The notes: a model not told the origin generated them from the letters alone. A stretch of 64,000 bases of DNA from Candidatus Komeilibacteria bacterium (GCA_043801745.1 JAZDLR010000016.1:1535-65534), one strand, 5' to 3'. Counted from the stretch's first letter, positions 10,274-53,468 are shown. Numbers and translations are program-made.

Positions 10274-11817
10274 TCATTGCTAAAATTCGGAAATTTTGTT
10301 GGGACAACCGATTTTTTTTAATTTTGGTTGTTTTTCTGGTTGTTATGACCGCTGCCACCTATTCACATTATCTCTACAATTGGGATGCCGGACAATTTGC
10401 TCTTGGCGCCAAACGCTTTTCTTTATCAGAACATCAACCACATCCACCCGGGTATTGGTTGTTTACTGAAACTATTAAATCTTTTAATCTTTTTTTAAGC
10501 GACGGCAACCTATCAATGATTCTGATCAATCTAGTGGCTAGTATGGCCGCGATTTTCTTCTTTTACCGGACAACCATGATGCTGACCGGCAAGCGTCTAC
10601 TGGCTTTTTGGTTAACCCTACTGTTACTAACCAACCAGGTTTTTTGGTTTTACCGTTCTGTTGCCAGCACCTACCTAATAGAAATATTAACTGTTTGCTT
10701 TTTACTCTATACATCAATCCGAATGCAAAAAGGTAGCCGCTCATTACTGCCATACAGCTGTCTGGCCGTGGCGCTTCTGGCCGGTTTTAGGCCTTCAGTT
10801 ATTTTGATCGCCGCCCCGTTATTACTCTACCAATTAATTTTGTCTCCACATAAAGTCTCCGCCATAATAAAAAGCTTGACCGGAGTGCTACTGGGATTAG
10901 CTCTTTGGCTACCCGCCTTAGCTGCCGCGGCCGGTGGCTATCAAGCCTTATATCACTTTATTATTGGTCAATTTATTATAGCCGAAACCTCGACAAGAGC
11001 GATTATTATCAGCCATGACATTTTTTTAGTGGCAACTATCCTGTACACAACCTTTGTACCTCTGATAATAGGCCTGCTGTTTTATAAAAAAATCTACAAC
11101 AGTATTCGCTCCTTCCATCTCTGGTTTATTGTAGCGACACTGGTCTGGCAAATTAGTATCTATCTGATACTACACTTTGATGAAGTTGGTTATATTCTCG
11201 GCCTCATACCTTTATCCTATATTCTTATTTTGCCAGCCTTAGAACATCTAGCTAGCAAGCGTAATCAACTGGTAATTTCCTGCCTAGTGATCTCGGGTCT
11301 GCAGTTAATACTATTTTTTACCGGCATTCCTCTGACCATTCAACCAAAAGTTCAAGCCCTAAACTACCAGGATATCAGCCGTCATGACCAACGGATACAA
11401 AGTCAACTAGCCTTTATTTCCAAATATGACCCGGCAACGACCTTAGTTATTATTACCCGCGGTCAATATCTAACTGCCGACAATGTGATAGCCTCCTACC
11501 CTTATAATGACATACGGCTAATGAGCTATTATTTGCCACAATACAAAATCTATGACCTACTAGGTGTTAAAAATAAATTTTATGTGGCGTCCAATTATAC
11601 CTACAGCGAAATTAACAATGAGACAGTGACCACTATGGCGCCGGCAATCAAACAAATTATTATTGTGGCTGACTATATTCATCCTACCTATCTGCCGCTT
11701 AATTTACAGTGGCGCAGTCTCTATCCGTCATTTAATATTAAAAATGTGTATTTCGCCGACTTAGGAGACCAAACAAACTTCATCTATAGCGGGCAAATCT
11801 TTAGTAAGAATCCCTGA
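10252..11817 (+). CDS. GT-C-type polytopic membrane protein (putative glycosyltransferase)
   Basis: Multi-TM N-terminal region plus C-terminal soluble domain; overlaps upstream gene by 22 nt. Confidence 0.45.
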   Translation: MASHYSLIIAKIRKFCWDNRFFLILVVFLVVMTAATYSHYLYNWDAGQFALGAKRFSLSEHQPHPPGYWLFTETIKSFNLFLSDGNLSMILINLVASMAAIFFFYRTTMMLTGKRLLAFWLTLLLLTNQVFWFYRSVASTYLIEILTVCFLLYTSIRMQKGSRSLLPYSCLAVALLAGFRPSVILIAAPLLLYQLILSPHKVSAIIKSLTGVLLGLALWLPALAAAAGGYQALYHFIIGQFIIAETSTRAIIISHDIFLVATILYTTFVPLIIGLLFYKKIYNSIRSFHLWFIVATLVWQISIYLILHFDEVGYILGLIPLSYILILPALEHLASKRNQLVISCLVISGLQLILFFTGIPLTIQPKVQALNYQDISRHDQRIQSQLAFISKYDPATTLVIITRGQYLTADNVIASYPYNDIRLMSYYLPQYKIYDLLGVKNKFYVASNYTYSEINNETVTTMAPAIKQIIIVADYIHPTYLPLNLQWRSLYPSFNIKNVYFADLGDQTNFIYSGQIFSKNP

Positions 11818-11890
11818 TGGTTATATTGCTTTTTCTCAGCTTTCATACTAGTATGCTCTTGCCTTAGTTCTATTTTTATCTTCTGATTAG

Positions 11891-11966
11891 CGGGGATTAG
11901 CGCAGTTGGTAGCGCGCACGATTCGGGTTCGTGAGGTCACCGGTTCGAATCCGGTATCCCCGACCA
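11891..11966 (+). tRNA. tRNA-Pro (anticodon CGG)
   Basis: Cloverleaf: acceptor CGGGGAT/ATCCCCG, D-stem GCGC/GCGC, anticodon stem CACGA/TCGTG with loop TTCGGGT (G37), T-arm ACCGG-TTCGAAT-CCGGT, encoded CCA. Confidence 0.85.
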
Positions 11967-11996
11967 TCAGCAGATAAAACACTTTATCCTGGATAG

Positions 11997-23824: not shown

Positions 23825-24763
23825 TTACTTTTTCCTTTCCCTTCCTTTAATATACCTTTCCAGGGCATCTTTTGAACTTAGCCAATTTCTACCTTCTTTA
23901 TAGGCCTCTATTTTACCTTGCCTAACTAATAGATTTAAATATTTAGCCGAATAAGGTGTGCCTTTGGCTAACTCGGTTAAAGAGATTAACTTTCCCGCGC
24001 CTTTCTTGGGCCCTAGTGTCTTTAGGTAGATATCAAAAGACCTCTCTATTGTTTGGGCAATAAAATTAACTAGCGGAACGTAATCACCGCCGTCGGCCTT
24101 GGCTAGGACGTTATAATATTTTTTCCTGTCATTCTTTAAAATGATTGTCAGCGGATAACCGGCTCTCATTAAGATCAGATTCATCACCAATCTGGCTGTC
24201 CGGCCATTGCCGTCAAAAAATGGATGAATACTTACTAATTTATGATGAAGCAGGGCGGCTAATTCAATGGCTGATATCTTCTTACTGTTTTGCTTCAACC
24301 AAACTATTAGGCCATTCATTAATTGAGGTACTTGAAAGGCCTCGGGCGGCGTATGCTTGGCGCCCATAATAAAAACATTGGCGGTTCTGTACTTTCCGGC
24401 TTGGTCTTTTTCCGTTTCTTGAACAACTATTTGATGAATGGAGCGGATTAAACCTTCGGAAACAGTATTCCGTTTGTCCTTATCAACTAAATCATAGAGG
24501 TATTCCAGGGCCGCATATTGATCTTTGGTTTCCAGATGATCCTTTAGGGGCTTGCCTTTAACAGTGATACCCTCATTAATAACTAAAAAGGTTTCTTTTA
24601 GGGTTAAACTATTACCCTCAATAGCGTTGGAGTTATAGGTCATTTCCAACCTAAACTTTTCCTGCAGTTTTTTCACAGCAGAGGCGCGTAATGGACGAAG
24701 TTTATTTAGTTCCTTCCTTTTAGCTTCCAAACGCGAGGCAATAATTTTATTCAAGTATTTCAT
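23825..24763 (-). CDS. Fic-family protein (AMPylase-type Fido domain)
   Basis: Fic motif HPFFDGNGRTARL; internal inhibitory-helix-like motif SNAIEGN; C-terminal wHTH-like region. Confidence 0.85.
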   Translation of the reverse strand: MKYLNKIIASRLEAKRKELNKLRPLRASAVKKLQEKFRLEMTYNSNAIEGNSLTLKETFLVINEGITVKGKPLKDHLETKDQYAALEYLYDLVDKDKRNTVSEGLIRSIHQIVVQETEKDQAGKYRTANVFIMGAKHTPPEAFQVPQLMNGLIVWLKQNSKKISAIELAALLHHKLVSIHPFFDGNGRTARLVMNLILMRAGYPLTIILKNDRKKYYNVLAKADGGDYVPLVNFIAQTIERSFDIYLKTLGPKKGAGKLISLTELAKGTPYSAKYLNLLVRQGKIEAYKEGRNWLSSKDALERYIKGRERKK

Positions 24764-26099: not shown

Positions 26100-27146
26100 T
26101 TAACGGATTGTAGTTAATAATTCATCCAGCTTGGATAATAGCAGCTGATTGCTAAAAGTTAATGTCTTAACTACTTGCGTAAAACGGGACAGCTGTGAGT
26201 GCCAACTATTAAAAACGTCGGCGGTTAATTCTTTGGTCATTAGTCCCAAGCCCAAGGCCTCTATCATACGGGCATTAAGAATCTGTTCGTACTGCATCTT
26301 TATCGGCATTGAGAGTATGGGCTTGCCCAAATATAAACTTTCTGACATCAAAGTAAAACCGCCATTAATAACCACGCCGCGCGCTCCGGCCAAATCATTA
26401 ACCACGCCACTGGGGCTAAATTCTTTAAATTGAAAGCGCGGTCCAAAATCCCGCCGCGCTGCATTGTAAATAATGAACTTCTCTCCGGTCTGATATAAGA
26501 CCTCGCCAAATTGATCAAAACAATCAGCTGTCAGATAACAGAAAAAATAATCTCCCGCCTGAGGTTGTGCCGCGTTAACTTCCGGCCGTATTAGTGGTGG
26601 GAATAACCAACTTTTACCTTCCCGGCTCTTCTTCAGAGGTGGGAAAAAGAAGGTCGTGATTAGTGAATAGTCGCGGTTCGGCGCCACTGATTCAGTATAA
26701 ACCTTAGTCACGACATAATCCGGATAATCCTGGCGCTTAATCGGCAATTTAGTGTCAGAAATAATATGCTGGTTATCGATACAGATCAAAGGCAAATCAT
26801 AAAATGACGCCAACACACTGGCTGATGGCTCAAAATCAGTAATAATAACGGTCGGCCGAAATGATTTGACCACCTCACCCAGAGCGCGCAAATCTTGAGG
26901 TAAACTTTTAACTTTAGCTAAATTCTTGGTTATAGTCCGGCTCTTCTTAACCCGCGTGCCGCTGTATTCCAATTTTAAACCATTAACTTCCAAATGCTGA
27001 GGATATCGCTGCGCTAAGTATTTATAAGCCTTACCGCTGGAAACTATGAAAACATCGTGTCCGCACGCCAGTAAATGATCGATAACCACCGAGCTACGGA
27101 AAGCGTGACCATTGCCGTCGCCACAAATAGTATAGAGAATCTTCAT
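26100..27146 (-). CDS. glycosyltransferase (GT1/GT28 MGT-like family)
   Basis: MKILYTICGDGNGHAFRS N-terminal G-rich loop, C-terminal UDP-sugar-binding-like region; start at internal ATG 27146. Confidence 0.6.
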   Translation of the reverse strand: MKILYTICGDGNGHAFRSSVVIDHLLACGHDVFIVSSGKAYKYLAQRYPQHLEVNGLKLEYSGTRVKKSRTITKNLAKVKSLPQDLRALGEVVKSFRPTVIITDFEPSASVLASFYDLPLICIDNQHIISDTKLPIKRQDYPDYVVTKVYTESVAPNRDYSLITTFFFPPLKKSREGKSWLFPPLIRPEVNAAQPQAGDYFFCYLTADCFDQFGEVLYQTGEKFIIYNAARRDFGPRFQFKEFSPSGVVNDLAGARGVVINGGFTLMSESLYLGKPILSMPIKMQYEQILNARMIEALGLGLMTKELTADVFNSWHSQLSRFTQVVKTLTFSNQLLLSKLDELLTTIR

Positions 27147-27281
27147 CTTAGCTATTATACCTAAAGGCCAGAAAAAAAACTGCCCCACTGTCAACCCTAT
27201 TAGAAAATAGTTTTCTTACTGGATAAGACTCACAATATACAAACGGGTCATAATCTAGTATAATAATAGACATATTATTGT

Positions 27282-28145
27282 ATGTCTCTGATCACTAAAG
27301 CTGTTATCCCCGTTGCTGGATTCGGAACCCGTTTTTTACCAGCCACCAAAGCGCAACCGAAAGAGATGTTGCCCTTGGTTGATAAGCCAATTATTCAATA
27401 TATTGTGGAAGAAGCGGTGGCTTCGGGTATAAAAGAAATAATTTTTGTCACCAACCAGAATAAGCGGGCCATTGAAGATCATTTTGACCGTAATTTTGAG
27501 CTGGAATATAGGCTGCGGCAGGGCAATAAAAAAACCCTGCTCAAATCTATCTCCAACATGTTCAAAATGGCACAATTTGTTTATGTGCGGCAACCGACGC
27601 CACGGGGACTGGCCGATGCTATAGCTCAGGCACAACATTTGGTGGGCGACGACCCCTTTGCCGTGTTCTTGGCCGACGACATTATTGACGGGCCAATACC
27701 GGCTATGAAGCAAATGATAAAAGTTTTTGAGACCTATCATAAGCCCGTCATTGGCGTTACCCGCGTGCCGCGTTCACAAGTATCGCGCTATGGTATTATT
27801 GACGGCCAGTTATTAAAAACCGGCGTCTACCAAGTCAAAACAATAGTCGAAAAACCCACAGTTCAACAAGCGCCCTCCAACCTGGCTGTCAGCCGCGGTT
27901 ACATTTTTACGCCCGAAGTTTTCCGTTACATCCGCCAAACTAAAACTAAAGCCGGAGAAGAAATTTACCTGACTAACGCCTTAAATCAGCTGGCCAAACG
28001 GAATAATTTACTGGCCTGCGCTTATCAAGGACAATACTATGATTGCGGTAATAAATTAGATTATGTCAAAGCTATGGTGGCTTATGGCCTCAAACATCCG
28101 GAGATCAAAAAACCGCTGAAAACCTGGTTAAAACAACACAAATAA
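27282..28145 (+). CDS. galU: UTP--glucose-1-phosphate uridylyltransferase
   Basis: KAVIPVAGFGTRFLPATKAQPKEMLPLVDKP motif typical of GalU. Confidence 0.85.
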   Translation: MSLITKAVIPVAGFGTRFLPATKAQPKEMLPLVDKPIIQYIVEEAVASGIKEIIFVTNQNKRAIEDHFDRNFELEYRLRQGNKKTLLKSISNMFKMAQFVYVRQPTPRGLADAIAQAQHLVGDDPFAVFLADDIIDGPIPAMKQMIKVFETYHKPVIGVTRVPRSQVSRYGIIDGQLLKTGVYQVKTIVEKPTVQQAPSNLAVSRGYIFTPEVFRYIRQTKTKAGEEIYLTNALNQLAKRNNLLACAYQGQYYDCGNKLDYVKAMVAYGLKHPEIKKPLKTWLKQHK

Positions 28146-28146: not shown

Positions 28147-29499
28147 ATGTTCAAAAATAAATTTCTCATCATTGGCTTAATACTAATTGTTGTTCTGGGA
28201 ATTGCCATTGCCACCATCACCAGCTTACAAAATAGGGTCAAGATCGCTTCTATTCAACCGGTAACTCTGGAGTATTGGGGCGTCTGGGAACAGCCGGAAG
28301 ACATCTCGCTGCTAACCCAGGCCTATCACCAGCGCCACCCCTTAATTACCATTAATTACCGCACCTTTACACCCGCTGAATATGCCAGTGAGTTGATTAA
28401 GGCTTGGGCTCAAGATAAGGGCCCGGATATTTTCATGGTTCCCAATACTTGGATTAGAGAATACAAAAAATACTCTCAGCCAATGCCCGCCACTATGTCA
28501 GTGCCGGTACAGTACGTTCAGGGAACCTTAAAAAAAGAAACCATAACCCGTTTACAAAATTATGCCGGTTATAACCCAAAAAATATTAAGGATTTATTTT
28601 TGGACGTAGTTTACCACGATGTGGTTGATAATAATGCTATCTATGGTCTACCCTACAGCGTTGATACCATGGCTCTTTTCTATAACCGCAGCCTACTACA
28701 AGCTAATGGCCTAGCCGAACCGGCCAAAACCTGGCAGGAGATTGTTCAACAGGCCGGTAAAATTTCCAAGCTTAATGCCGATAATACCTTTGCCCAGTCA
28801 ACTATCGCTTTGGGCGGAACAACCAATATACCCAATGCTTTTGACATTATTTCTCTGCTAATGAGTCAGGTGGGAGTAACTATGGGCAACGATACTAGCG
28901 TTTCTTTTGCTGAAGATAAAAAATCTTTGTCGGCTCTGGAATTCTATAGCAGTTTTGCCCGGCCCAATACCACAGTCTATTCCTGGAATAAAGACCAGGC
29001 CAGCGCCTTAGATGTTTTTACTTCCGGGCGGCTAGCGTATTTTCTGGGCTATACCTTTCACGCTCCGCTGATCAAGCGTACCAATCCTAACCTGGATTGG
29101 GACGTTGTACCGGTGCCACAGGCCGAAGGCGCTACCAGTCAAATTACTTACGCCAACTACTGGGTCAATGCTGTGGCCAAAAAATCTAAGCATGCCGGTT
29201 TTGCCTGGCAGGCGGTGTACGAGATGACTCAGGCTGATAATGTTAAGTCATTCTTAAGCCGCACCGGTAGAACTACCGCGCTCCGCAGCTTGGTCAGCGA
29301 ACAACAGAAAGATCCGGTCATTGGACCCTTTGCCCAAAACCTTTTGACAGCCCAGAGCTGGTATCGAGGCTATAATTTCCCCTTAGCTCAAGAATACTTT
29401 TTTGCTATGATTAATACCATTGTTACTGGCGGCAATCCGACGCAAGCCCTGCAGGCGGCAGAAACCAAAATTCAACAAACCTATCAAGCACCAAAATAA
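28147..29499 (+). CDS. extracellular solute-binding protein (ABC-type, family 1-like)
   Basis: N-terminal TM anchor and SBP_bac_1-like fold cues; translationally coupled to galU and to the downstream pilin-like gene. Confidence 0.55.
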   Translation: MFKNKFLIIGLILIVVLGIAIATITSLQNRVKIASIQPVTLEYWGVWEQPEDISLLTQAYHQRHPLITINYRTFTPAEYASELIKAWAQDKGPDIFMVPNTWIREYKKYSQPMPATMSVPVQYVQGTLKKETITRLQNYAGYNPKNIKDLFLDVVYHDVVDNNAIYGLPYSVDTMALFYNRSLLQANGLAEPAKTWQEIVQQAGKISKLNADNTFAQSTIALGGTTNIPNAFDIISLLMSQVGVTMGNDTSVSFAEDKKSLSALEFYSSFARPNTTVYSWNKDQASALDVFTSGRLAYFLGYTFHAPLIKRTNPNLDWDVVPVPQAEGATSQITYANYWVNAVAKKSKHAGFAWQAVYEMTQADNVKSFLSRTGRTTALRSLVSEQQKDPVIGPFAQNLLTAQSWYRGYNFPLAQEYFFAMINTIVTGGNPTQALQAAETKIQQTYQAPK

Positions 29500-29501
29500 C
29501 C

Positions 29502-30146
29502 ATGTTTAATTTTCTATTTTCCTGGCTGTTACCAACCGCCGCCAAGGCACAAGCGCTTGGCCTGATTGATAATATTCCCTGCGTGCAAAATGGCTATATA
29601 TTACCTAGCGGCCAATGGTCGCCCGGAACCTGCACCCTGGATAACATCACAGCCGGGGTCGGCTATTTAATAAATTATGGTGTAGCCATTAGCGGCGCCC
29701 TGGCTCTACTGATGTTTATTATTGGCGGTTGGTATTTGGTGGCCAGCGCCGGCCGCAAAGACTGGATAACTCGCGGCAAAAACATTCTGATCAACACCGT
29801 GTTTGCTATCTTCTTCATCTTAGGAGCCTGGCTGCTGGTCAGGGGAGTACTGGACATTGTTGGCTCTAATATTATTTTCCAAAGCGGCGAAACAACTACT
29901 ACCAGCTGTCAGGGTGAGGGCACCCAATGTAATGTCACCGGCAAATGCAAAGTGGTGAATAATATTGGCGAGTGTGTTAATCCTTGTGTCTATTTAGCCA
30001 CCGATTCAAAACCCTATTCTTGCCACAATAGCCTAGACGAATGTTTCCCCGCTGGAACCGCGTGCGTCAACTATCCCGATAACTGCCTGGAAACTCAAGG
30101 TCTGTGTCTAAGTAATCAATATTGCTGTTTCCCGTCTGCCAGATAA
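29502..30146 (+). CDS. pilin-like protein (T4SS TrbC/VirB2-type 2-TM core) fused to a C-terminal Cys-rich domain
   Basis: Signal peptide plus two TM helices as in the downstream pilins, then a 90-aa domain with 14 Cys. Confidence 0.5.
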   Translation: MFNFLFSWLLPTAAKAQALGLIDNIPCVQNGYILPSGQWSPGTCTLDNITAGVGYLINYGVAISGALALLMFIIGGWYLVASAGRKDWITRGKNILINTVFAIFFILGAWLLVRGVLDIVGSNIIFQSGETTTTSCQGEGTQCNVTGKCKVVNNIGECVNPCVYLATDSKPYSCHNSLDECFPAGTACVNYPDNCLETQGLCLSNQYCCFPSAR

Positions 30147-30185
30147 TTCCAACTAAATGACATCCATTAATATTGCAAAAAAAAT

Positions 30186-30524
30186 ATGAAAAAAATCTTT
30201 TTTACTCTACTAACCTTGTTGCTCTTACCGGCCGCTGCTAATGCTGTTGAAGAAATACCGCCCGTCGTCCTACCCAATCCTCTGGGCCAAGAAGTTAATA
30301 ATATACCACTGCTCGTCAACCATATCATTGTTGGCATTTTGGGTATTGTCGGCGCCGTTGCTTTATTGGCCTTTATCTGGGGCGGCCTGCTCTGGATGAC
30401 CTCGCTAGGCAATGCCGACCGCGTCAAGCAAGGCAAAGAAACACTGATTTATGCCACCATCGGATTATTGGTGATTTTTATTAGTTATTCGGTAATTAAT
30501 TTTATTTTTAAATCGTTGACCTAG
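30186..30524 (+). CDS. pilin-like protein (TrbC/VirB2-type; CPR T4SS-pilin family)
   Basis: Signal peptide (AANA|VEE), two TM helices, WMTSxGN motif. Confidence 0.6.
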   Translation: MKKIFFTLLTLLLLPAAANAVEEIPPVVLPNPLGQEVNNIPLLVNHIIVGILGIVGAVALLAFIWGGLLWMTSLGNADRVKQGKETLIYATIGLLVIFISYSVINFIFKSLT

Positions 30525-30596
30525 CAGTTGATTTTTTGGCGCAAAATATTTATACTATAAACAATTACTATCTAATCCTCGAAAGGAGGTGAGTAC

Positions 30597-30980
30597 ATGA
30601 AAAAAATCGTTTCCCTATTATCAATTTCAGCCGCTGCCCTTACGGGATTATTCCAAGGTGTTTTAGTCAAAGCCCAAGCGTTGACGCCCTCCCTGGATAT
30701 ACCGGAAAGTTTTGGCGGTCTGGGCTCACAAGATCTCAAGATTACTATTGCTAACATTGTTCAGATAGTCTTGGGTTTCTTGGGTATCTTAACTGTCTTG
30801 ATCATCCTCTTGGGCGGCTTCAAATGGATGACTTCTGGCGGTAATGAAGATAAGATTGATGAAGCCAAAAAGCTGATCAGTGCTGGTGTTGTCGGTCTGG
30901 TGATCGTTCTGGCCGCTTATGCTATTGCCACCTTCATTGTCGGCAATATCGGTAACGCCGTCACCGGTACCACTTCATAA
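30597..30980 (+). CDS. pilin-like protein (TrbC/VirB2-type), paralog
   Basis: GGAGG RBS; signal peptide plus 2 TM; KWMTSGGNEDKIDEAKK motif. Confidence 0.6.
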   Translation: MKKIVSLLSISAAALTGLFQGVLVKAQALTPSLDIPESFGGLGSQDLKITIANIVQIVLGFLGILTVLIILLGGFKWMTSGGNEDKIDEAKKLISAGVVGLVIVLAAYAIATFIVGNIGNAVTGTTS

Positions 30981-31021
30981 ATATAGTCTAGACTATAACC
31001 CATCATCATTGACTGATCTAA

Positions 31022-31489
31022 TTGATGATGGGTTGGGGCTTACACTATAACTTCATGACTTTCCGTCTATTCTTTTTTTCAACCATTGCCTTTCTTTTGG
31101 CATCACCGCTAAAAGCGGCTGCCAGTCCGGCAGGTGATGGGTTACAAAAGGCAGTTAAAAATTCGGGCCTTCCCACTGGTTCAATCGAATCTATGGCGGC
31201 CAATTTTATTATCGTTGTCTTAGGAATTGTCGGCGTGCTTTTTATGCTGCTGATTCTTTATGGCGGTTATGTTTGGATGATGGGCAGTAGAGCCGGCAAA
31301 GAAAAAGAAATTAATAATGCCAAGACTATTTTAACTAACGCCACGATTGGTCTGCTGCTTGTGCTGGCCGCTTATGCTATTACTTATTTCATTGTCCAAC
31401 AAATCAACTTTGCCACTACCGGCACTTTGGAACCGGACCTTGATACCGGTGATCCCGGCGTACCCTATGTTGATCCTGGACCTGCTTAA
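31022..31489 (+). CDS. pilin-like protein (TrbC/VirB2-type), paralog
   Basis: Signal peptide plus 2 TM; YVWMMGSRAGKEKEI motif; start may be a downstream ATG. Confidence 0.55.
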   Translation: MMMGWGLHYNFMTFRLFFFSTIAFLLASPLKAAASPAGDGLQKAVKNSGLPTGSIESMAANFIIVVLGIVGVLFMLLILYGGYVWMMGSRAGKEKEINNAKTILTNATIGLLLVLAAYAITYFIVQQINFATTGTLEPDLDTGDPGVPYVDPGPA

Positions 31490-31494
31490 TAATT

Positions 31495-31914
31495 ATGAAA
31501 AAATATTTTTATCTCATTCTAGCGTATCTTCTGGCGCCTCATATTTCTTGGGCCGCTACTAGTGCGTCATCTTCCGGCGGCAGCCCGCTAGACAGCGTCA
31601 AGGCAATCGGTACTCTGGTCTATGGCGGCAGCGGCACACCTTACGATATTAAGCGGGTTATCTCCGGTCTTATCCAGATTTTCTTAGGCTTAATTGGAAT
31701 TATCTTTCTACTGCTGATCATCTGGTCAGGTTTCCGTTGGATGACTAGCGGCGGCAATGAGAAAACCGTGGAAGAGGCTAAAAAAACCCTGCAGAATTCT
31801 GTTGTCGGTCTGATTATCGTTGTTATGGGCTACTCCATTGCTTACTGGATAATAGTCTGGCTGGGGCAGGCGACCACAGGCGCCGGTACGACCGGGGGTC
31901 CTGTGATCGAATAG
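31495..31914 (+). CDS. pilin-like protein (TrbC/VirB2-type), paralog
   Basis: Signal peptide plus 2 TM; FRWMTSGGNEKTVEEAKK motif. Confidence 0.6.
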   Translation: MKKYFYLILAYLLAPHISWAATSASSSGGSPLDSVKAIGTLVYGGSGTPYDIKRVISGLIQIFLGLIGIIFLLLIIWSGFRWMTSGGNEKTVEEAKKTLQNSVVGLIIVVMGYSIAYWIIVWLGQATTGAGTTGGPVIE

Positions 31915-31929
31915 TAGATCTGTAAGTTG

Positions 31930-31970
31930 AACGACCCGCCACTCAATTGAGTAGCGGGTCGTTTTTTTCT
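31930..31970 (+). terminator. intrinsic terminator after the pilin cluster (ACGACCCGC ... GCGGGUCGU plus U7)
   Basis: 9-bp GC-rich stem followed by a T7 tract. Confidence 0.7.
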
Positions 31971-31980: not shown

Positions 31981-32499
31981 CTAACGATAGATCGGGATTC
32001 GTACTTGGGGCCCTTGGAAAGCATCTCGCCCCTTGTCATAGACCGGTAGACACTTTCGGTAGAGTCTCCTGCTCCCATCGGGGCACTCTATCAGAGCAGT
32101 GATGGGATAGCAGGCAAAGGCCTTGTTCGGCTTGACCCGAATCAGGGTGGGCAATGTCTGCTGCTGGGGACCCAGGCGGAACTTGGGCTCATGTACCCAC
32201 TTGTACTCCACCCAGGAGGTGTCGGCGCCGGATCGGGTCCGGCCGTGATGCGGCCGCTCCTCCTGCAGTTCAAACTCATAGGCCAGGCGGACCGACACCG
32301 AACAGCCACAATCGCGTGCCGGTAAACGCTCACCAGTATCCTGATCAACATCGGTTCTGTTCATGACGTTTACGGTCAACCAGTCAGCCCGGTTTTCCGT
32401 AATGTCGCTGGAACTGTGGATCAGGACACTGGTAGAACAGCCTGTCAGCAGCACCAGAGCCGCAAGACAGAAAAGCACAACTACTGGCCAGGATTTCAT
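31981..32499 (-). CDS. lipoprotein (hypothetical), compositionally foreign (high GC)
   Basis: Lipobox LLTGC; local GC content well above neighbours. Confidence 0.5.
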   Translation of the reverse strand: MKSWPVVVLFCLAALVLLTGCSTSVLIHSSSDITENRADWLTVNVMNRTDVDQDTGERLPARDCGCSVSVRLAYEFELQEERPHHGRTRSGADTSWVEYKWVHEPKFRLGPQQQTLPTLIRVKPNKAFACYPITALIECPDGSRRLYRKCLPVYDKGRDAFQGPQVRIPIYR

Positions 32500-32648: not shown

Positions 32649-34463
32649 ATGTTTCTCGTGAAACATCTTAGCTCTTGGCTCAATTACCGACCCCAAATTT
32701 TCCTTATTGCTGCTGCCTTTGTATTTGCTGCTTTCTTTGGCGCAGCAGTACTAATAAAATACAATTTCTTTCTCTATAATGGCCTGGATCTGGCTATTTT
32801 TAATAATTCTTTATGGAACCTGATCCACGGAAATAATTTGTATAACGCCATACATCCACCGACCTACTGGGCCGATCATGTGTCACCCTGGCTTCTCGTA
32901 TTGGCTCTACCCTACGCCCTTTGGGCCGATCCTCAATTTCTTTTGCTGTCACAGATCGTGGTTCTGGCTGCCTGCGTCTGGCCACTTTATTTAATTGCCA
33001 GGAAATACTTATCACCGCGGTTAGCCTGCCTTGTTGCCGGCCTTTGGCTAGTTAATCCTCTGATTCATAACATTAGTTTATATGAATTTAGTTTGGTGCC
33101 TTGGTCAATATTTTTTTTGCTTTGGGCTTATTACTGGTATGACCAGAAACACTGGGCGCGTTTTATAATTTTTTCTTTACTGGCCATTACAACCCGCGAG
33201 GACGTGGCTGTAATGTTGGTGGGTTTTTCTATTCTGGCCGCTATTGATAAGTGCAGCTGGAAATGGTGGTTAACGCCAGGAATAATTGGCCTTGGTTGGT
33301 TTGCTGTGACGCAATATATTATCAATCAGGCGTCTCTTATTGGTGTCTCTAAATTTGTTAATTATTACAGCTGGCTCTGGCAACCCTCACTGGCCGAAAT
33401 TAGTCGACATTTTTTAAACCTCGGCAATGTGCAGATATTTCTCGGGCTGCTTTTACCTTTATTATTTTTACCCTTACTAAGACCGAAAACGTTAATCCTG
33501 ACACTTTTGCCTCTGGGTATTCTGCGCTTGGCCAGTGGCGACGACGGCGCCGCAGTTTTGCGGGCTCATTATGGCGGCTTCTTGCTTTGGCCCTTGTTTA
33601 TTGCCACCATTCTTGCTTTGGCCACCGACAATCAGCCGCGCCTGTTACAAAAATTGACCAATTACCGCCTATTAATAATTTTGTCACTGCTGACGGCTAG
33701 TATTTACGCCAGCCTAACTTATGGCAATATTCTTCCCCTGGTTAATTATCACTGGAACAGTTCTCGGGCCGAAGAATATCGGCTGGCCTGGCAGCAAATT
33801 CCCGAGACAGCACGAGTCGCCTCCACTTATTCTTTCTTGACGCCCCTATCTTCACGGCAGCAATTACAGTTACTGCCCTATGCTTATGCCGGCATGGGAC
33901 AATTTGCCTTAACCAACTACCAACTTGACCCCCAAACTGAATATTTACTAATTGATTGGCAGGAGTGGTTAATAGCACAAGTTCATTACCCCGGCCGTTA
34001 TCCGCAAAAAGTTTCTCTAGCAGACATGACTACCTGTTGGCAAAGCTGGCAAGCGGATTATCGACCAATCTGGCAGCAAGGCGCTATAACCATATTTCAA
34101 CGACATCCGAATAATATATTAATAGCCACGGTCAAACCAACAAGCAATCAGGCGGCAACTTTAAATATATTTAGCAGCGCTGGGCAGTCCGAAGCCTATC
34201 TGACTAGCCCGGCTACGACCAGTCTACAGGCCCTGCAGCTAAGCACAGCCAACTCTACCTACTATCTGCCACTAGCCTACGGTTTATGGACCTCCACTAG
34301 CAGTTCGGCTGAGATTACCATGCCGCTGAATGACCCGGCAGTAAAAAAAATTGACCTCGTGGCCTTTCGCTGGCCGCAGATAATGCTTAATAACATCAAT
34401 ACTCTAGAGTTGCGGTGGAAATCGCTGATCACCGAAGCTACTGCTGATGTAAACGATAAATAG
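32649..34463 (+). CDS. polytopic membrane protein with C-terminal soluble domain (GT-C/DUF2079-like, putative glycosyltransferase)
   Basis: About 10 TM helices plus a 200-aa C-terminal domain. Confidence 0.45.
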   Translation: MFLVKHLSSWLNYRPQIFLIAAAFVFAAFFGAAVLIKYNFFLYNGLDLAIFNNSLWNLIHGNNLYNAIHPPTYWADHVSPWLLVLALPYALWADPQFLLLSQIVVLAACVWPLYLIARKYLSPRLACLVAGLWLVNPLIHNISLYEFSLVPWSIFFLLWAYYWYDQKHWARFIIFSLLAITTREDVAVMLVGFSILAAIDKCSWKWWLTPGIIGLGWFAVTQYIINQASLIGVSKFVNYYSWLWQPSLAEISRHFLNLGNVQIFLGLLLPLLFLPLLRPKTLILTLLPLGILRLASGDDGAAVLRAHYGGFLLWPLFIATILALATDNQPRLLQKLTNYRLLIILSLLTASIYASLTYGNILPLVNYHWNSSRAEEYRLAWQQIPETARVASTYSFLTPLSSRQQLQLLPYAYAGMGQFALTNYQLDPQTEYLLIDWQEWLIAQVHYPGRYPQKVSLADMTTCWQSWQADYRPIWQQGAITIFQRHPNNILIATVKPTSNQAATLNIFSSAGQSEAYLTSPATTSLQALQLSTANSTYYLPLAYGLWTSTSSSAEITMPLNDPAVKKIDLVAFRWPQIMLNNINTLELRWKSLITEATADVNDK

Positions 34464-36051
34464 CGCCGGTGGAATTTTTTTTAATCAGCTGCAAATATGG
34501 CGCTTCATCCAGCCAGGAAAAAAATTCTGCCGGATTTTTTGTAGTGTAGTGAACAACAATCAACGAGATCCGGTTATCAACTAAAAATTTGATCTTATCC
34601 AGGCCTGTATTAGCCGAAAAAAATTCGTCTGCCTTCTGCCGCTTCTGTAAATAGTTGATTGTCTGATGCTGGTGTCCGATATAAATAGTCTGACCCGTAA
34701 AAGCCGGGATCAACAGGCCAATGGGTTCATCAAAAGGCAAGACTATTTGTTCCACGGGTTGTTGTTTTAAACTACCCAGTAGCTCCTTCGTTTCAGCCGA
34801 TAAATAAAAGCGGTCATTGGTTTGATAGTAGGACATTGCCCGGAGATATACTGTCTGACTATACCAGGGTCCAAAAGTCACGGCCATAATAACAAATAAC
34901 CAATAGATGATCTGCCAATAATAATTTTGAATCCGCCGAGCCAAAGCTAGGGCACCCAAACCAGCCACCAAACTAACAGGAATTAGCCAGCCGTTAGCCA
35001 GTCGGCGATTATAGTCCAGTGGCAAATAAACCATAATCCAGGTGACCCAAGTCCAGATGACCAATAGCCGCCACCACTCGTTGTCGCGCCATTTAGTCCA
35101 CCAGTGATAGGTGCCTATCACAGCTAGGGGAAATAACAGGCCCCAAGCTAATAAATAATTATAGGGCGGCGGCGAATAAACTAAATTTTGAGCTGACCAA
35201 CCGCGCAGCGCTGTTTCGCTCATAACCAAACCCCAGACTAAGCCCGCGCTGGCCGCACACCAGAACCAATAGATTGACAGCTTATATAAGTAGCGTCTGT
35301 CCTGCGTCTGCCACCAGCGCCATAATGACCACAACGCCGGTATCGTAGCTAAGATCCAAAAATCATAGGGGTGAACCATAATTAATAAAGCCGCCAAAGC
35401 CCCTACCAGACTCTCTGATTGCCAACTTATAGTCTGTCGTTGTTTTATCCACAGATAGAATACCAACAACAATAATATGTGCGACAGAATAAATAGGGGC
35501 GATTGCTGAGCATTGGCTTGAAGTGATAATTCGCCCATGTAAATATCTACCGGCTTAGTCGTTAACGGCGCAAAATCACTAGCTAAGATACTGGGTTGAA
35601 ATAAGGCCTTGGCCCACCCCCAACCTCCGGCGAATAACACAAACAGCCAGAGCCACAACCTCTCATTATACTTACTAGTCAGGCGCCTTAACCAAAAAAA
35701 CAAAACCACCATTGTTACCAGCACCAACAAAATCCTCCACCCATGATAGACGGGTATCACACCCAGAGAAAAAAGATTAGCCGTTTGACCGATTAGCCAC
35801 CAATGAGGACCAATCAGACTGCCCACCTGCAGCTCGCTAGTGTGAATATTTTTTTGTAGCAATTGGCCCAACCGGCCCTGCTCAATCATAGAGTAGTAAA
35901 CCAATTTATCCGCCGAAGCCGCTAGATTGATGCCCGTATAACTACTGCCGGACGGTGCCGCAAGGGCCGACCATAAATATAAAATATTAGTAAACACCAA
36001 AAAAATTACTATCAGACAAATGCTGGCCAGATAATACTGCTTTTTAGTCAT
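34438..36051 (-). CDS. polytopic membrane protein (GT-C-like, putative glycosyltransferase)
   Basis: >10 TM helices, Trp-rich; C-terminal soluble domain. Confidence 0.45.
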   Translation of the reverse strand: MTKKQYYLASICLIVIFLVFTNILYLWSALAAPSGSSYTGINLAASADKLVYYSMIEQGRLGQLLQKNIHTSELQVGSLIGPHWWLIGQTANLFSLGVIPVYHGWRILLVLVTMVVLFFWLRRLTSKYNERLWLWLFVLFAGGWGWAKALFQPSILASDFAPLTTKPVDIYMGELSLQANAQQSPLFILSHILLLLVFYLWIKQRQTISWQSESLVGALAALLIMVHPYDFWILATIPALWSLWRWWQTQDRRYLYKLSIYWFWCAASAGLVWGLVMSETALRGWSAQNLVYSPPPYNYLLAWGLLFPLAVIGTYHWWTKWRDNEWWRLLVIWTWVTWIMVYLPLDYNRRLANGWLIPVSLVAGLGALALARRIQNYYWQIIYWLFVIMAVTFGPWYSQTVYLRAMSYYQTNDRFYLSAETKELLGSLKQQPVEQIVLPFDEPIGLLIPAFTGQTIYIGHQHQTINYLQKRQKADEFFSANTGLDKIKFLVDNRISLIVVHYTTKNPAEFFSWLDEAPYLQLIKKNSTGAIYRLHQQ

Positions 36052-37615
36052 ATTTTTTTACAATCTCAAAAATTTTGGCAAATGGTCCTTGATAACGCAA
36101 AACGAAATTCTTGTCTTGACTTAATTGATCGATCAAGTCGTGATTGCCGTTTCCCACCAGGAGAAACCGTGAATGAAAAACTTTAGTAATAATCTGAGCA
36201 ATGTCTCCCGTAGCCTTACCCTCACTAACGCTTGACCACAAGGCCCATAATTCTGGGCTTTGATTATACATAAAAGTCGGGTCCAGGCCGACAATATAAT
36301 AATTGGACCGATTATAATAAAAAAGCGCCGGCCAATAATCCCAGTTAGAATTAAAAACAATTTCTCCCGGCCTACTATTCTCCTGCAGCCACTGTGACTC
36401 GGCAGCTAATTGGTTAACGGTAAAAGTTGTTTGGCTTTCATTGGCCCTAACAGCCATAACGTCTTTGAAAATTAAAAAAATGAAGGTCGGAATAATAAAT
36501 ACTATGACCAGAAAAGCATAAAATTTAATTAACCAACCAAATTTTCCCGGCAACGATAACTGCTGCTTGAGCCACCGGGCAGTTATCTGGGGCAAACAGC
36601 GGACCCAGAGTACCGCCGTGGCAATAAATAAGAGGGGGTCTGACAGCTCAACGTAGCGCCGCGATTTCCAGGTCAAGCCCACAGCAATAAACGACAAAAT
36701 AACTAAAAACCAGTCGTCGCGCCTTAACTGACGGAAGCGGTGCCAACCAAAAATAATAATTATTGCCAGAATCACCAGAGGATAGACGTGAAAATTGATC
36801 ACGTCTCTCCAGGATAGGGACAGCCATTCAGCACCTACTCCCACTGCCTGACCATAATTAATTACGCCGATTTGAACAATCTGCTGCCAATAAAAATATA
36901 AATTATGCGGCCAGTAGGGATTAAGTACAATCCCCGCCAAGCTGCCTGCCAGGGTCACTACTAGTAAACCAAATGAACGGGGACGGAATAACCGACAAAC
37001 TAATGATTTTTCGCGGCTGCTCCAGCCGGCAAGGACATCAACGCACCAATACAGGCCGACCGTCATGATACCAAAAATCCAGCCACCATAAAGCCAGACA
37101 TAAATAATTTGCAAAAAAAATAATAACCAGATTTTTTTCTTCAATAAAGCATAGAGAATCAAAACCACAACAATCAAGGAAACACTGTTGGCTTTAACTA
37201 AGGCCAGACGGAAAGCAAAAGTTGAGGAGAACAATAATAACGCTGTCCAAATTAACGCTAGCTGCGGCGCCAAGCGACGCAAGAACCAATAAAAAACCGT
37301 AAAAAAGCTGGCGCCAAATAAAATTGTACCCAGCTTAATGGCATAGAGTGGATTGCCCAGCTTCATTAAGGGAGCCAACAATAAGTGGTAGAGCAGGTGG
37401 TGATCAGTAAAATGTTGGCTTAAAGTTGTAAACTGCATCCAGGGCAAGCTACGCAATAAAACCCCTTCAGATAATAATTGTGCTATAGCTGCGTGATAAA
37501 AGACATCAGGATCACCAAAGGCCAGATGGAATTGCCAAAAAGCCAGAAATAAAAAAGTAACAAAAAAAACCAGCAGATACTCCATCTGTTGGTAATACTT
37601 TTGCCGGTCAGTCAT
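36044..37615 (-). CDS. polytopic membrane protein (GT-C-like, putative glycosyltransferase)
   Basis: >10 TM helices plus C-terminal soluble domain; 8-nt overlap with downstream paralog-like gene. Confidence 0.45.
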   Translation of the reverse strand: MTDRQKYYQQMEYLLVFFVTFLFLAFWQFHLAFGDPDVFYHAAIAQLLSEGVLLRSLPWMQFTTLSQHFTDHHLLYHLLLAPLMKLGNPLYAIKLGTILFGASFFTVFYWFLRRLAPQLALIWTALLLFSSTFAFRLALVKANSVSLIVVVLILYALLKKKIWLLFFLQIIYVWLYGGWIFGIMTVGLYWCVDVLAGWSSREKSLVCRLFRPRSFGLLVVTLAGSLAGIVLNPYWPHNLYFYWQQIVQIGVINYGQAVGVGAEWLSLSWRDVINFHVYPLVILAIIIIFGWHRFRQLRRDDWFLVILSFIAVGLTWKSRRYVELSDPLLFIATAVLWVRCLPQITARWLKQQLSLPGKFGWLIKFYAFLVIVFIIPTFIFLIFKDVMAVRANESQTTFTVNQLAAESQWLQENSRPGEIVFNSNWDYWPALFYYNRSNYYIVGLDPTFMYNQSPELWALWSSVSEGKATGDIAQIITKVFHSRFLLVGNGNHDLIDQLSQDKNFVLRYQGPFAKIFEIVKKYD

Positions 37616-53438: not shown

Positions 53439-53468
53439 GTCCTCAACATCCACCACGGACAACAACAA

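What the first reader, a model, noticed from the sequence alone, without database searches (positions are those of the whole stretch)
29502..31914. Five tandem TrbC/VirB2-type pilin-like genes, the first fused to a 14-Cys domain
Four paralogs of 112-155 aa share a signal peptide, two TM helices and a W-M-T-S-x-G-N motif. A larger first member carries the same core plus a C-terminal domain with 14 cysteines. This is the small-pilin family characteristic of CPR/DPANN type-IV-secretion-like or competence-like surface filaments. No VirB4/VirD4/VirB6 gene is in the window, so the array is an orphan pilin locus. The Cys-rich member is a candidate tip adhesin or host-attachment subunit for an episymbiotic lifestyle.
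Basis: partly seen in the sequence, partly recalled or inferred. Interest (0 to 1): 0.55.

Follow-up and report, generated by a model that had tools for sequence, protein, structure and literature searches.

The report
VirB2-like pilin array with sugar-binding partner
This is a five-gene array of secretion-system-type pilin-like proteins in an ultra-small (Komeilibacteria/CPR) bacterium, a kind of array already described, but its first, cysteine-rich member is nearly always paired with a sugar-binding protein gene, a link I found in none of the papers I searched or read.

Summary
Five same-strand genes (29502-31914) encode paralogous proteins with a signal-like N-terminus and a two-helix membrane hairpin. 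P2-P5 pass Pfam PF18895 (T4SS_pilin). P1 falls below the cut-off, but its orthologues pass. P1 has 14 cysteines, all invariant in its orthologues: 12 in the C-terminal domain and 2 before the first membrane helix.

The source is a Candidatus Komeilibacteria MAG (class ABY1). Tandem VirB2-like pilin arrays are already published for Patescibacteria (441 arrays; essential in Southlakia epibionticum), so the array itself is not new.

Three results go beyond the finding:
- P1 belongs to a distinct subfamily that directly follows an orthologous oligosaccharide-type solute-binding protein (28147-29499). This held in every informative related locus found (5 of 6 genome loci, 18 metagenome loci), even where both flanks differ.
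- galU lies upstream of that pair in many lineages.
- The five paralogues are old 1:1 orthologues. P3 is the most conserved and has a rare perfect ribosome-binding site, so it is the likely major subunit. P1's outer domains evolve fastest.

No T4SS machinery gene was detected in the window. Homology to true VirB2/TrbC is only weakly supported. Pilus formation and adhesin function are inferred, not shown.

The parts
27282..28145 (+). galU-like NTP_transferase (287 aa), probably a UTP-glucose-1-phosphate uridylyltransferase. It is the first gene of the tightly packed same-strand run and ends 1 nt before the SBP gene.
   Evidence: Pfam NTP_transferase, 131 bits. A galU orthologue (47-70% identity) lies directly upstream of the SBP in L002, L007, L010, L027, L028, L032, L033, L042 and L048. 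It is absent there in the Falkowbacteria-type loci, where SMC lies upstream. Whether it belongs to the unit functionally is an inference.
28147..29499 (+). Membrane-anchored solute-binding protein (450 aa) of the oligosaccharide ABC-SBP type. Its stop codon lies 2 nt before the P1 start codon.
   Evidence: It is 40% identical over its full length (E 3e-118) to L005:8621-9991. The near-identical Falkowbacteria copy L012:1394-2764 passes Pfam SBP_bac_1 at 100 bits. A profile of the orthologues hits solved sugar SBPs (4r9f at 1.5e-19, also 3uor and 4qrz). The window copy alone gives no Pfam SBP hit at E<=1. It is followed directly by a Cys-decorated pilin in 5 of 6 informative genome loci and in 18 metagenome loci. 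NCBI: MFH0873767.1, 'hypothetical protein'.
29502..30146 (+). P1: a PF18895-type two-helix pilin core (helices about 46-81 and 91-122) carrying an N-terminal Cys pair (C27, C44) and a 90-residue C-terminal 12-Cys domain. Both decorations are predicted to be extracytoplasmic.
   Evidence: PF18895 at 22.1 bits, E 1.6e-4, below the gathering score of 26.6. Family profile E 1.2e-12. Orthologues and subfamily members pass the gathering score at 27.8-47.7 bits. All 14 Cys are invariant across 4 orthologues of 51-61% identity. The core is 77-86% identical but the outer domains only 28-44% when Cys columns are excluded. The C-terminal domain has no relatives among 1.84 billion representatives and no Pfam match. 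NCBI: MFH0873768.1, 'pilin'.
30186..30524 (+). P2: a Cys-free VirB2-like pilin paralogue (112 aa).
   Evidence: PF18895 40.5 bits; TrbC 18.7 bits, sub-threshold. Orthologues 58-76% identical in L001, L002, L007 and L010.
30585..30592 (+). Shine-Dalgarno sequence GGAGGTGA, 4 nt upstream of the P3 start codon.
   Evidence: Read from the sequence. Only 2 of 37 long ORFs in the window have even a 4-mer SD core. The motif is conserved upstream of the P3 orthologues in L001 and L007. A weak promoter-like match lies at 30528-30556.
30597..30980 (+). P3: the most conserved pilin paralogue (127 aa) and the candidate major subunit.
   Evidence: PF18895 37.2 bits. Orthologues are 81-82% identical in L001, L002 and L007 and 72% in L010, as conserved as the SBP. 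AlphaFold2 with a 100-sequence alignment gives pLDDT 80 overall and above 95 in the core, with a helical hairpin at 47-78 and 84-123.
31055..31489 (+). P4: pilin paralogue (144 aa from ATG 31055; the ORF opens at TTG 31022) with a degenerate loop motif, WMMGSRAGK.
   Evidence: PF18895 31.8 bits. The NCBI model P0012 is 144 aa and named 'pilin'. Orthologues 46-64% identical.
31495..31914 (+). P5: pilin paralogue (139 aa). It starts 5 nt after the P4 stop and has a Gly/Thr-rich C-terminal tail.
   Evidence: PF18895 39.2 bits; TrbC 21.1 bits, E 3.6e-4; NF045849 34.6 bits. Orthologues about 58-60% identical in L001, L002 and L007.
31929..31970 (+). Intrinsic terminator closing the operon.
   Evidence: Hairpin of -26.8 kcal/mol, z = -6.3 against shuffles, followed by a U7 run.
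31981..32499 (-). Convergent 172-aa lipoprotein (LLTGC lipobox). It keeps its position next to the array but is very divergent. Whether it belongs to the unit is uncertain.
   Evidence: A lipoprotein of 156-166 aa occupies the same position in L001, L002, L004 and L015, at 19-31% identity. Its GC is 0.568 against 0.439 for the window. No Pfam family.
32649..34463 (+). DUF2079 polytopic membrane protein (604 aa). It is the conserved downstream neighbour. Whether it belongs to the unit is uncertain.
   Evidence: Pfam DUF2079, 147 bits. It is also downstream of the array in L001, L002, L007 and L010 and in the distant contig L033.

Best explanation
**What it is.** The locus is the pilin-subunit cassette of the Patescibacteria-type (Gram-positive-like) type IV secretion system of a Candidatus Komeilibacteria bacterium. 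The machinery genes (VirB4 and the rest) lie elsewhere.

**How it likely works.** All five products are exported by Sec and inserted as two-helix hairpins, with both ends outside and the charged loop inside.
- P3 is the major structural subunit. It is the most conserved paralogue and the only one with a strong ribosome-binding site.
- P2, P4 and P5 are old, specialised minor or alternative subunits.
- P1 is a minor subunit. Its N-terminal disulfide and its C-terminal 12-Cys module (two 6-Cys units of about 35-40 residues) would project from the filament or cell surface as a fast-evolving binding surface.
- P1 is probably translationally coupled to a membrane-anchored oligosaccharide-binding protein. 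In many lineages galU and a DUF2079 membrane protein also lie next to it. I read this as a glycan-directed role: recognising or capturing host surface sugars, or glycosylating the pilins.

**Shown:** family membership, topology-compatible sequence features, 1:1 orthology, conservation pattern, gene coupling and its phylogenetic spread.

**Inferred:** filament assembly, dependence on a T4SS, the major/minor roles, disulfide formation, and any SBP-pilin interaction.
For: **Family and organism**
- PF18895 above the gathering score for P2-P5 and for P1-type orthologues.
- Weak but consistent similarity to TrbC/VirB2: Pfam 18.7 and 21.1 bits; hhalign E 3.4e-4 over 62 columns spanning both helices.
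- Weak similarity to the Mycoplasma ICE pilin-like protein NF045849, E as low as 1e-8.
- AlphaFold2 gives a confident helical hairpin for P3.
- The organism is Komeilibacteria, class ABY1.

**Literature**
- Arrays of 2-11 such genes occur in 383 Patescibacteria assemblies, with about 25% identity between paralogues (PMC12102498).
- The array in the S. epibionticum T4SS cluster is essential (PMC10633639; PMC12857230).
- VirB4 is recorded in 6 of the 8 Komeilibacteria assemblies I read in Table S1.

**Roles of the paralogues**
- Orthologue identities, window against L007 / L010: P3 81/72%, SBP 81/64%, P1 51/35%.
- The SD sequence is unique to P3 and conserved in relatives.
- All P1 Cys are invariant, while the rest of its outer domains is 28-44% identical.

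**Coupling to the SBP**
- An SBP orthologue lies directly upstream of a Cys-decorated pilin, at -4 to +10 nt where the pilin start is clear, in 5 of 6 informative genome loci and 18 metagenome loci. SBP identity falls as low as 34-42%.
- The pair persists where both flanks differ.
- galU lies upstream in 10 loci.
Against: - No T4SS machinery gene was detected in 64 kb, nor within 5-10 kb of the related cassettes I examined.
- I could not search the rest of this genome.
- No pilus made of PF18895 proteins has been reported in the papers I read.
- Pfam TrbC scores are below the cut-off, hhalign probability is only 38%, and fold searches cannot tell this hairpin from any other.
- The P1 model has low confidence, pLDDT 51.
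- Part of the gene-order conservation (galU...DUF2079...YebC-RuvC) looks like general chromosomal synteny within ABY1, so adjacency may overstate functional linkage.
- The SBP could simply serve an ABC importer encoded elsewhere.
Confidence: 0.6

Rival explanations
1. The pilin reading is right, but the link to the SBP, galU and DUF2079 is inherited gene order with no shared function. The SBP feeds an ordinary sugar ABC importer encoded elsewhere.
For: Wider synteny, including the housekeeping genes YebC-RuvC and DUF2079, is shared with distant ABY1 contigs. The SBP is a normal-looking oligosaccharide SBP. A more distant SBP homologue in Levybacteria (32% identity) has no pilin next to it.
Against: The SBP-pilin pair stays together, only -4 to +10 nt apart where the pilin start is clear, when both flanks are replaced: SMC upstream and a RodZ-like gene downstream in the Falkowbacteria-type loci. 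No ABC permease or ATPase for sugars was seen in the window or in the flanks I examined. The P1-type subfamily was found without the SBP only where the contig ends.
Confidence: 0.25
2. The PF18895 proteins are not filament subunits. They are small integral membrane partners of the SBP, forming a new SBP-dependent uptake or sensing module in the cytoplasmic membrane.
For: No T4SS genes nearby. The SBP is strictly adjacent. No pilus has yet been demonstrated for this family. Gram-positive-type T4SSs normally lack pili.
Against: In other Patescibacteria the same family sits inside T4SS clusters and is essential there. Arrays also occur with no adjacent SBP (L015/L016). Multiple divergent paralogues with variable outer segments fit surface subunits better than a transporter. 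A two-helix protein has no precedent as a permease.
Confidence: 0.1
3. The paralogues are interchangeable variants used for antigenic or host-range variation, as proposed for the Bartonella Trw and Anaplasma VirB2 arrays.
For: Low identity between paralogues, about 20-40%. The outer segments evolve fast. The published work suggests this for Patescibacteria.
Against: Each paralogue has a 1:1 orthologue in the same order in relatives whose SBP is 64-81% identical. I saw no recent duplicates or copy-number change within this lineage. Expression signals differ between the paralogues.
Confidence: 0.1
4. They are type IV pilus (PilA-like) or competence pseudopilins.
For: CPR genomes do encode type IV pili.
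Against: There is no G/FxxxE prepilin-peptidase site. There is an AxA signal-peptidase-I-type site instead, two membrane helices rather than one, and no T4P family match.
Confidence: 0.02

Closest known systems
VirB2-like pilin arrays of Patescibacteria (Quinonero-Coronel et al. 2025, PMC12102498; the essential pilin series in the Southlakia epibionticum ML1 T4SS cluster SEML1_0006-0019, Wang et al. 2023, PMC10633639)
   Same: Same Pfam family (PF18895), same phylum, tandem arrangement of 2-11 genes, and about 25% identity between paralogues. The array lies about 27 kb from dnaA; those authors note that T4SS genes are often origin-proximal.
   Different: Here the array is not next to virB4. 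Its first member carries disulfide-rich outer domains. It is coupled to a solute-binding protein gene and galU, and neither paper mentions this. The Se array has 6 genes and sits inside the T4SS cluster.
TrbC/VirB2/TraA conjugative pilins of diderm T4SSs (Pfam PF04956), for example Agrobacterium VirB2
   Same: A signal peptide followed by two hydrophobic helices joined by a short loop, with a small mature size. Weak sequence similarity across both helices, including G-x-x-W-M-x-G around the loop.
   Different: Scores are below Pfam's cut-off. The loop is about 7 residues longer and has mixed charge. There is no adjacent VirB1 or VirB3 as in the plasmid operons. The host is a monoderm. A large C-terminal extracellular domain like P1's is absent from the eight VirB2/TrbC proteins aligned here.
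Mbov_0395 family pilin-like conjugal transfer protein of Mycoplasma ICEs (NCBIfam NF045849)
   Same: A small two-helix protein belonging to a monoderm (MPF-FATA-type) conjugation system. P2-P5 match nearly the whole 80-position model, with E-values from 2.6e-4 to 1.2e-8.
   Different: All scores (20.6-34.6 bits) are below the family cut-off of 40. Those proteins are ICE-borne single copies, not chromosomal arrays.
VirB2 paralogue arrays of Bartonella (Trw) and Anaplasma phagocytophilum
   Same: Tandem amplification of divergent VirB2-type pilins, thought to diversify host-surface interactions (as cited in PMC12102498).
   Different: Those arrays lie inside T4SS loci of diderm intracellular pathogens and show lineage-specific amplification. 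Here the paralogues are old, stable 1:1 orthologues.
Solute-binding lipoproteins that double as fimbria-associated adhesins in Gram-positive bacteria (for example Streptococcus parasanguinis FimA of the LraI family). This is recalled from memory and was not checked here.
   Same: An ABC-type binding protein genetically or physically associated with a surface filament and used for attachment.
   Different: It belongs to a different SBP class (metal-binding rather than oligosaccharide) and a different filament type. No interaction has been shown here.

Membership tests
Pfam PF18895 T4SS_pilin | Whole-protein score at or above the gathering score (26.6 bits) | tested here: met
   P2 40.5, P3 37.2, P4 31.8, P5 39.2 bits. 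P1 alone scores 22.1 bits and fails. However, it matches a 100-member family profile at E 1.2e-12, and P1-type orthologues and subfamily members score 27.8-47.7 bits.
Pfam PF18895 T4SS_pilin | Signal-like N-terminus followed by two hydrophobic helices joined by a short loop carrying W-M-T-x-x-G-N-E | tested here: met
   Hydropathy and alignment. AlphaFold2 hairpin for P3 with core pLDDT above 95. The loop motif is degenerate in P1 and P4. No SignalP run was possible.
TrbC/VirB2 conjugative pilins (Pfam PF04956) | Score at or above the gathering score (27.9 bits) | tested here: not met
   P2 18.7 bits (E 0.002) and P5 21.1 bits (E 3.6e-4). No hit for P1, P3 or P4.
TrbC/VirB2 conjugative pilins (Pfam PF04956) | Profile-profile homology to authentic VirB2/TrbC proteins | tested here: inconclusive
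   hhalign of 100 PF18895 members against 8 plasmid VirB2/TrbC proteins: probability 37.8%, E 3.4e-4, 62 columns covering both helices. A PDB sequence search with the profile found nothing at E<=10.
TrbC/VirB2 conjugative pilins (Pfam PF04956) | Pilin fold (helical hairpin) matching solved conjugative pili | tested here: inconclusive
TrbC/VirB2 conjugative pilins (Pfam PF04956) | Encoded together with VirB3, VirB4, VirB6 and other T4SS machinery | tested here: not met
   No such Pfam or NCBIfam match among the window ORFs scanned or among the flanking genes I scanned in related loci. The rest of the genome could not be searched.
TrbC/VirB2 conjugative pilins (Pfam PF04956) | Polymerises into an extracellular pilus in a VirB4-dependent way | not testable with these tools
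   This needs imaging and genetics. The reviews I read treat it as an open possibility for Patescibacteria.
Patescibacterial VirB2-like pilin arrays (PMC12102498) | Two or more PF18895/PF04956 genes in tandem, or separated by one gene, in a Patescibacteria genome, with low identity between paralogues | tested here: met
   Five in tandem. Paralogue identities are 20-31% to P1 and 26-40% among P2-P5. Source named Candidatus Komeilibacteria, class ABY1.
Patescibacterial VirB2-like pilin arrays (PMC12102498) | VirB4 present in the same genome | not testable with these tools
   The source MAG is not indexed for context look-ups. Lineage-level support only: 6 of the 8 Komeilibacteria assemblies I read in Table S1 carry VirB4.
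Type IV pilus or competence pilins | Class III signal peptide (G/FxxxE) and a single N-terminal hydrophobic helix | tested here: not met
   The sequences show AxA-type sites and two helices. No T4P family hit.
ABC-transporter solute-binding proteins, SBP_bac_1 (gene 28147-29499) | Homology to family 1 SBPs | tested here: met
   The window copy has no Pfam SBP hit at E<=1. It is 39-42% identical over nearly its full length to Falkowbacteria-type copies, one of which scores 100 bits on SBP_bac_1. The orthologue profile hits solved sugar SBPs at E 1.5e-19.
ABC-transporter solute-binding proteins, SBP_bac_1 (gene 28147-29499) | Adjacent permease and ATPase genes of a sugar ABC importer | tested here: not met
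   None in the window or the examined flanks. The only ABC system present is a MacB/FtsX efflux type at 18-21 kb.

The most novel reading that the evidence does not exclude
The conserved unit 'oligosaccharide-binding protein + disulfide-knotted VirB2-like pilin', often with galU and further pilins, would be a previously unrecognised host-glycan recognition module of the Patescibacteria T4SS-type filament. In it, the SBP would act as a receptor or assembly partner of a decorated pilin rather than as a transporter component. Alternatively, the PF18895 'pilins' would not be filament subunits at all but the membrane part of a new SBP-dependent system.
Probability: 0.2. Interest if true: 0.75.

Novelty: new variant of a known kind. 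Interest (0 to 1): 0.45.

Why it matters
Patescibacteria make up a large share of bacterial diversity and, where cultivated, live attached to host cells. Their T4SS-like system and its pilin array are essential in the one genetically tractable species, but nobody knows what the pilins bind or carry.

This analysis picks out a distinct, widely conserved subfamily of these pilins. It has a rigid cysteine scaffold and fast-evolving loops, and it is always expressed next to a sugar-binding protein. That gives concrete candidates for the host-recognition end of the apparatus.

It also gives a testable idea: recombinant SBP and the P1 outer domain can be tested for binding to host envelope glycans. 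If the coupling turns out to be only inherited gene order, the locus is simply one more ordinary member of a published class.

Tried and rejected
- **Relatives of the P1 C-terminal domain.** A phmmer search of residues 125-214 against 1.84 billion representatives found only P1 itself and a cysteine-free LPXTG repeat protein, a compositional artefact. Pfam finds nothing in this domain or in the longer Cys-rich versions from related loci.
- **AlphaFold2 model of P1.** With only 4 sequences the model reached pLDDT 51, too poor for a fold search or disulfide assignment.
- **PDB sequence search with the pilin profile.** No hit at E<=10.
- **Walking along the source contig to look for VirB4.** The exact proteins P1 and P5 are not in the context index.
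- **An apparent missing Cys-pilin in L002.** This was an N-run assembly gap, not a deletion.
- **Rejected readings.** Holin, TctB, DctQ or cytochrome subunit: these are only E>0.01 hydrophobic matches, and some JGI automatic names follow them. Type IV pilins. Recent tandem amplification.
- **Unannotated window ORFs of 130-537 aa.** NCBIfam gave no T4SS match.
Full report
**1. The observation**

Five ORFs lie head to tail on the + strand at exactly the reported coordinates: P1 29502-30146 (214 aa), P2 30186-30524 (112 aa), P3 30597-30980 (127 aa), P4 31022-31489 and P5 31495-31914 (139 aa). The mechanical P4 ORF opens at a TTG (155 aa). ATG 31055 gives a normal signal-like N-terminus and matches the 144-aa NCBI model.

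Each protein has an N-terminal hydrophobic segment ending in an AxA-type site, followed by two strongly hydrophobic stretches. P1 has 14 cysteines, but only 12 sit in the C-terminal domain (136-209). C27 and C44 precede the first membrane helix. P2-P5 have none. The W-M-T-S-x-G-N loop motif is intact in P2, P3 and P5 and degenerate in P4 and P1.

Pfam PF18895 (T4SS_pilin) scores P2-P5 at 31.8-40.5 bits against a gathering score of 26.6, and P1 at 22.1 bits. A profile of 100 family members hits these five ORFs and no other ORF of 40 aa or more in the window.

**2. Source and surroundings**

P1 is 100% identical to NCBI MFH0873768.1, 'MAG: pilin [Candidatus Komeilibacteria bacterium]', on a 156,579-bp contig. 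Komeilibacteria are listed under class ABY1 of Patescibacteria.

The window is ordinary chromosome. It holds dnaA and dnaN at 57.7-60.4 kb with a GC-skew turn there, plus YidC, a class A PBP, TyrRS, glycogen synthases, a MacB/FtsX efflux operon and many glycosyltransferase-like membrane proteins. Pfam was run on 40 of the longer ORFs outside the array, and NCBIfam on 10 ORFs, seven of which had no Pfam match. Neither found a VirB4, VirD4, VirB6, VirB3, VirB8 or relaxase match. I could not read the rest of the genome, because its proteins are not in the context index.

**3. What is already known**

Quinonero-Coronel et al. 2025 (PMC12102498) searched 3,035 Patescibacteria genomes with this same Pfam model. 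They report VirB2-like pilins in 1,948 VirB4-containing assemblies, located near virB4 in 1,135 of them. They also report 441 arrays of 2-11 pilin genes, with about 25% identity between paralogues.

Wang et al. 2023 (PMC10633639) showed that the pilin series inside the Southlakia epibionticum T4SS cluster is essential for epibiotic growth. A 2025 review treats a pilus in this monoderm system as an exciting but unproven possibility (PMC12857230). Of the eight Komeilibacteria assemblies I read in Table S1 of the first paper, six carry VirB4.

So the tandem array is a member of a published class, and 'orphan' describes only the local neighbourhood.

**4.

The gene directly upstream (28147-29499, 450 aa) stops 2 nt before the P1 start codon. 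It is a membrane-anchored solute-binding protein. It is 40% identical over its full length (E 3e-118) to a Falkowbacteria-type protein. A near-identical copy of that protein passes SBP_bac_1 at 100 bits. The orthologue profile hits solved oligosaccharide SBPs at E 1.5e-19.

Searching GTDB genomes with the SBP gave eight loci. Two did not bear on the pairing: L009, whose contig ends at the SBP, and L008, where an N-run assembly gap interrupts the Cys-pilin gene (the same gap I read directly in L002, the same contig). In five of the other six (L007, L010, L011, L012, L013), the next gene is a PF18895 pilin with 5-15 cysteines. The sixth, a distant 32%-identity homologue in Levybacteria, has none. 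L005 and L006, fetched earlier through the Cys-pilin P0103, show the same pair.

Searching metagenome contigs with the P1-type pilin gave 24 loci. In 18 of them the SBP orthologue lies directly upstream, at -4 to +10 nt where the pilin start is clear. In the other six the pilin lies within 500 nt of the start of the contig. Several of these loci are near-identical to each other. The distinct lineages number about a dozen, with SBP identity to the window as low as 34-42%.

The pair persists where both flanks differ. In the Falkowbacteria-type loci SMC lies upstream and a RodZ-like HTH_25/Glucodextran_B gene lies downstream, and no further pilins follow. Elsewhere 2-9 more pilins follow.

A galU orthologue directly precedes the SBP in the window and in L002, L007, L010, L027, L028, L032, L033, L042 and L048. 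A DUF2079 membrane protein follows the array in the window, in its close relatives and in the distant L033.

I found no mention of the SBP link in the T4SS paper, and no paper in the library combines the terms Patescibacteria, solute-binding protein and pilin.

**5. The P1 subfamily**

The P1-type proteins share three features:
- an N-terminal Cys pair;
- a distinctive core, [GA]-[AS]-[LV]-A-L-L-M-F-[IV]-[IV]-G-G;
- one or more C-terminal units of about 35-40 residues with six Cys, most ending in C-C-x-P.

P1 and L013 have two units. The Falkowbacteria proteins have one. Other relatives reach 20-26 Cys. These members pass PF18895, but their outer domains match no Pfam family.

Among P1's four close orthologues all 14 Cys are invariant. 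The membrane core is 77-86% identical, while the outer domains are only 28-44% identical once Cys columns are excluded. The loop between the helices, GRKDWITRGK, has a net charge of about +3. By the positive-inside rule this places both decorated ends outside, which is consistent with disulfide formation. Other family members carry N-terminal Cys-rich domains or are fused double pilins, so decoration is a recurring theme.

**6. The five paralogues are not equivalent**

Each has a 1:1 orthologue in the same order in related contigs. Identities for the window against L007 and L010 are:

| Gene | vs L007 | vs L010 |
|---|---|---|
| SBP | 81% | 64% |
| galU | 70% | 70% |
| P3 | 81% | 72% |
| P2 | 65% | 58% |
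| P4 | 64% | 46% |
| P5 | 59% | — |
| P1 | 51% | 35% |

For P5 in L010, the best tblastn match fell on the P3 orthologue, so no value is given.

P3 is preceded by a perfect GGAGGTGA, conserved in relatives, whereas only 2 of 37 long ORFs in the window have even a 4-mer SD core. P1 and P5 start 2 and 5 nt after the preceding stop codon. A strong terminator (-26.8 kcal/mol, z = -6.3, U7) follows P5. I read P3 as the major subunit, and the set as old specialised paralogues rather than a recently amplified variation cassette.

**7. Is it a VirB2?**

- Pfam TrbC/VirB2 scores are sub-threshold: 18.7 and 21.1 bits against 27.9. Several relatives also carry precomputed PF04956 hits.
- I built an alignment of eight annotated VirB2/TrbC proteins from plasmids. 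hhalign against 100 PF18895 members gave 37.8% probability and E 3.4e-4, aligning both helices and the G-x-x-W-M-x-G region.
- NCBIfam shows near-threshold similarity to the Mycoplasma ICE pilin-like protein family NF045849, at up to 34.6 bits against a cut-off of 40.

Membership of PF18895 is therefore solid. Homology to true VirB2 is plausible but not established. The 'works like VirB2' claim rests mainly on the genetic context in other Patescibacteria.

**8. Mechanism and rivals**

Best-supported reading (confidence about 0.6): this is a pilin-subunit cassette for the Patescibacteria T4SS-type apparatus encoded elsewhere. P3 is the major subunit. P1 is a disulfide-stabilised, fast-evolving, surface-exposed minor subunit. 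The co-expressed oligosaccharide-binding protein, often with galU and DUF2079, points to a glycan-directed role.

Rivals:
- The SBP adjacency is inherited synteny without shared function (0.25). Wider ABY1 synteny that includes YebC-RuvC supports this. The survival of the pair through flank replacement argues against it.
- The proteins are membrane partners of the SBP rather than filament subunits (0.1).
- The array is a variation cassette (0.1).
- The proteins are type IV pilins (0.02). The sequence contradicts this.

**9. Verdict**

The finding is real and the family assignment is essentially right. The array as such is already known biology. The new element is the widely conserved coupling between a distinct cysteine-knotted pilin subfamily and an oligosaccharide-type SBP. 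It is of moderate interest, and I class it as a new variant of a known kind.

Noticed in passing
window 31981-32499 (-): A 172-aa lipoprotein (LLTGC lipobox) converges on the pilin array. Its GC is 0.568 against 0.439 for the window. A lipoprotein of 156-166 aa occupies the same position in L001, L002 and L004 (25-31% identity) and after the six-pilin array of L015 (19% identity). So the position is conserved while the sequence is very fast-evolving or has been replaced.
   Followed up: partly
window 51551-51651 (-): Rfam reports a second tRNA, 101 nt long at 51.7 bits, next to tRNA-Lys (51667-51743). ARAGORN did not call it. It may have an intron or a long-arm structure.
   Followed up: no
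window about 56000-60500: GC skew switches from negative to positive beside dnaN and dnaA (57679-60402, - strand), which suggests the replication origin. The pilin cassette lies about 27 kb from it. Published work notes that Patescibacteria T4SS genes are often origin-proximal.
   Followed up: partly
window 52000-53530: This is the most GC-rich part of the window (0.508) and holds a stack of overlapping ORFs of 130-220 aa on both strands. None was scanned and no Rfam family matched.
   Followed up: no
window 8582-14234 and 32649-37615: The array sits among large polytopic membrane proteins with glycosyltransferase-like family matches: AftA_N-like, YfhO, DUF2079, and two unannotated proteins of 523 and 537 aa. 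There is also a cytoplasmic GT (26100-27194) and galU. This neighbourhood could bear on pilin or envelope glycosylation.
   Followed up: partly
L040 (4-4131) and L046 (23-3883): Each of two metagenome contigs carries three tandem genes for much larger proteins (349-513 aa, 8-13 Cys) that contain a PF18895 core passing the Pfam cut-off. They look like another decorated branch of the family.
   Followed up: partly
L030 10-2253 (-): A 747-aa ComEA-like extracellular protein (HHH_3 + Lamin-tail + OB-fold + PKD) lies divergently upstream of one SBP-pilin cassette.
   Followed up: no
L007-L010 record titles: Four GTDB MAGs that carry the same cassette and clearly Komeilibacteria-like gene order are titled 'uncultured Gammaproteobacteria bacterium' in their TPA records. 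This is probably a mislabel.
   Followed up: no
window 28147-31914 (NCBI annotation): NCBI names P1, P2 and P4 'pilin' but P3, P5 and the SBP 'hypothetical protein', although P3 and P5 score well above the PF18895 cut-off.
   Followed up: yes
window 23825-24763 (-): A Fic/DOC-domain protein with a C-terminal HTH_17 domain lies between the MarR/efflux operon and a methyltransferase. This block is absent from the syntenic relative L002, which instead carries copper-ATPase genes there.
   Followed up: no
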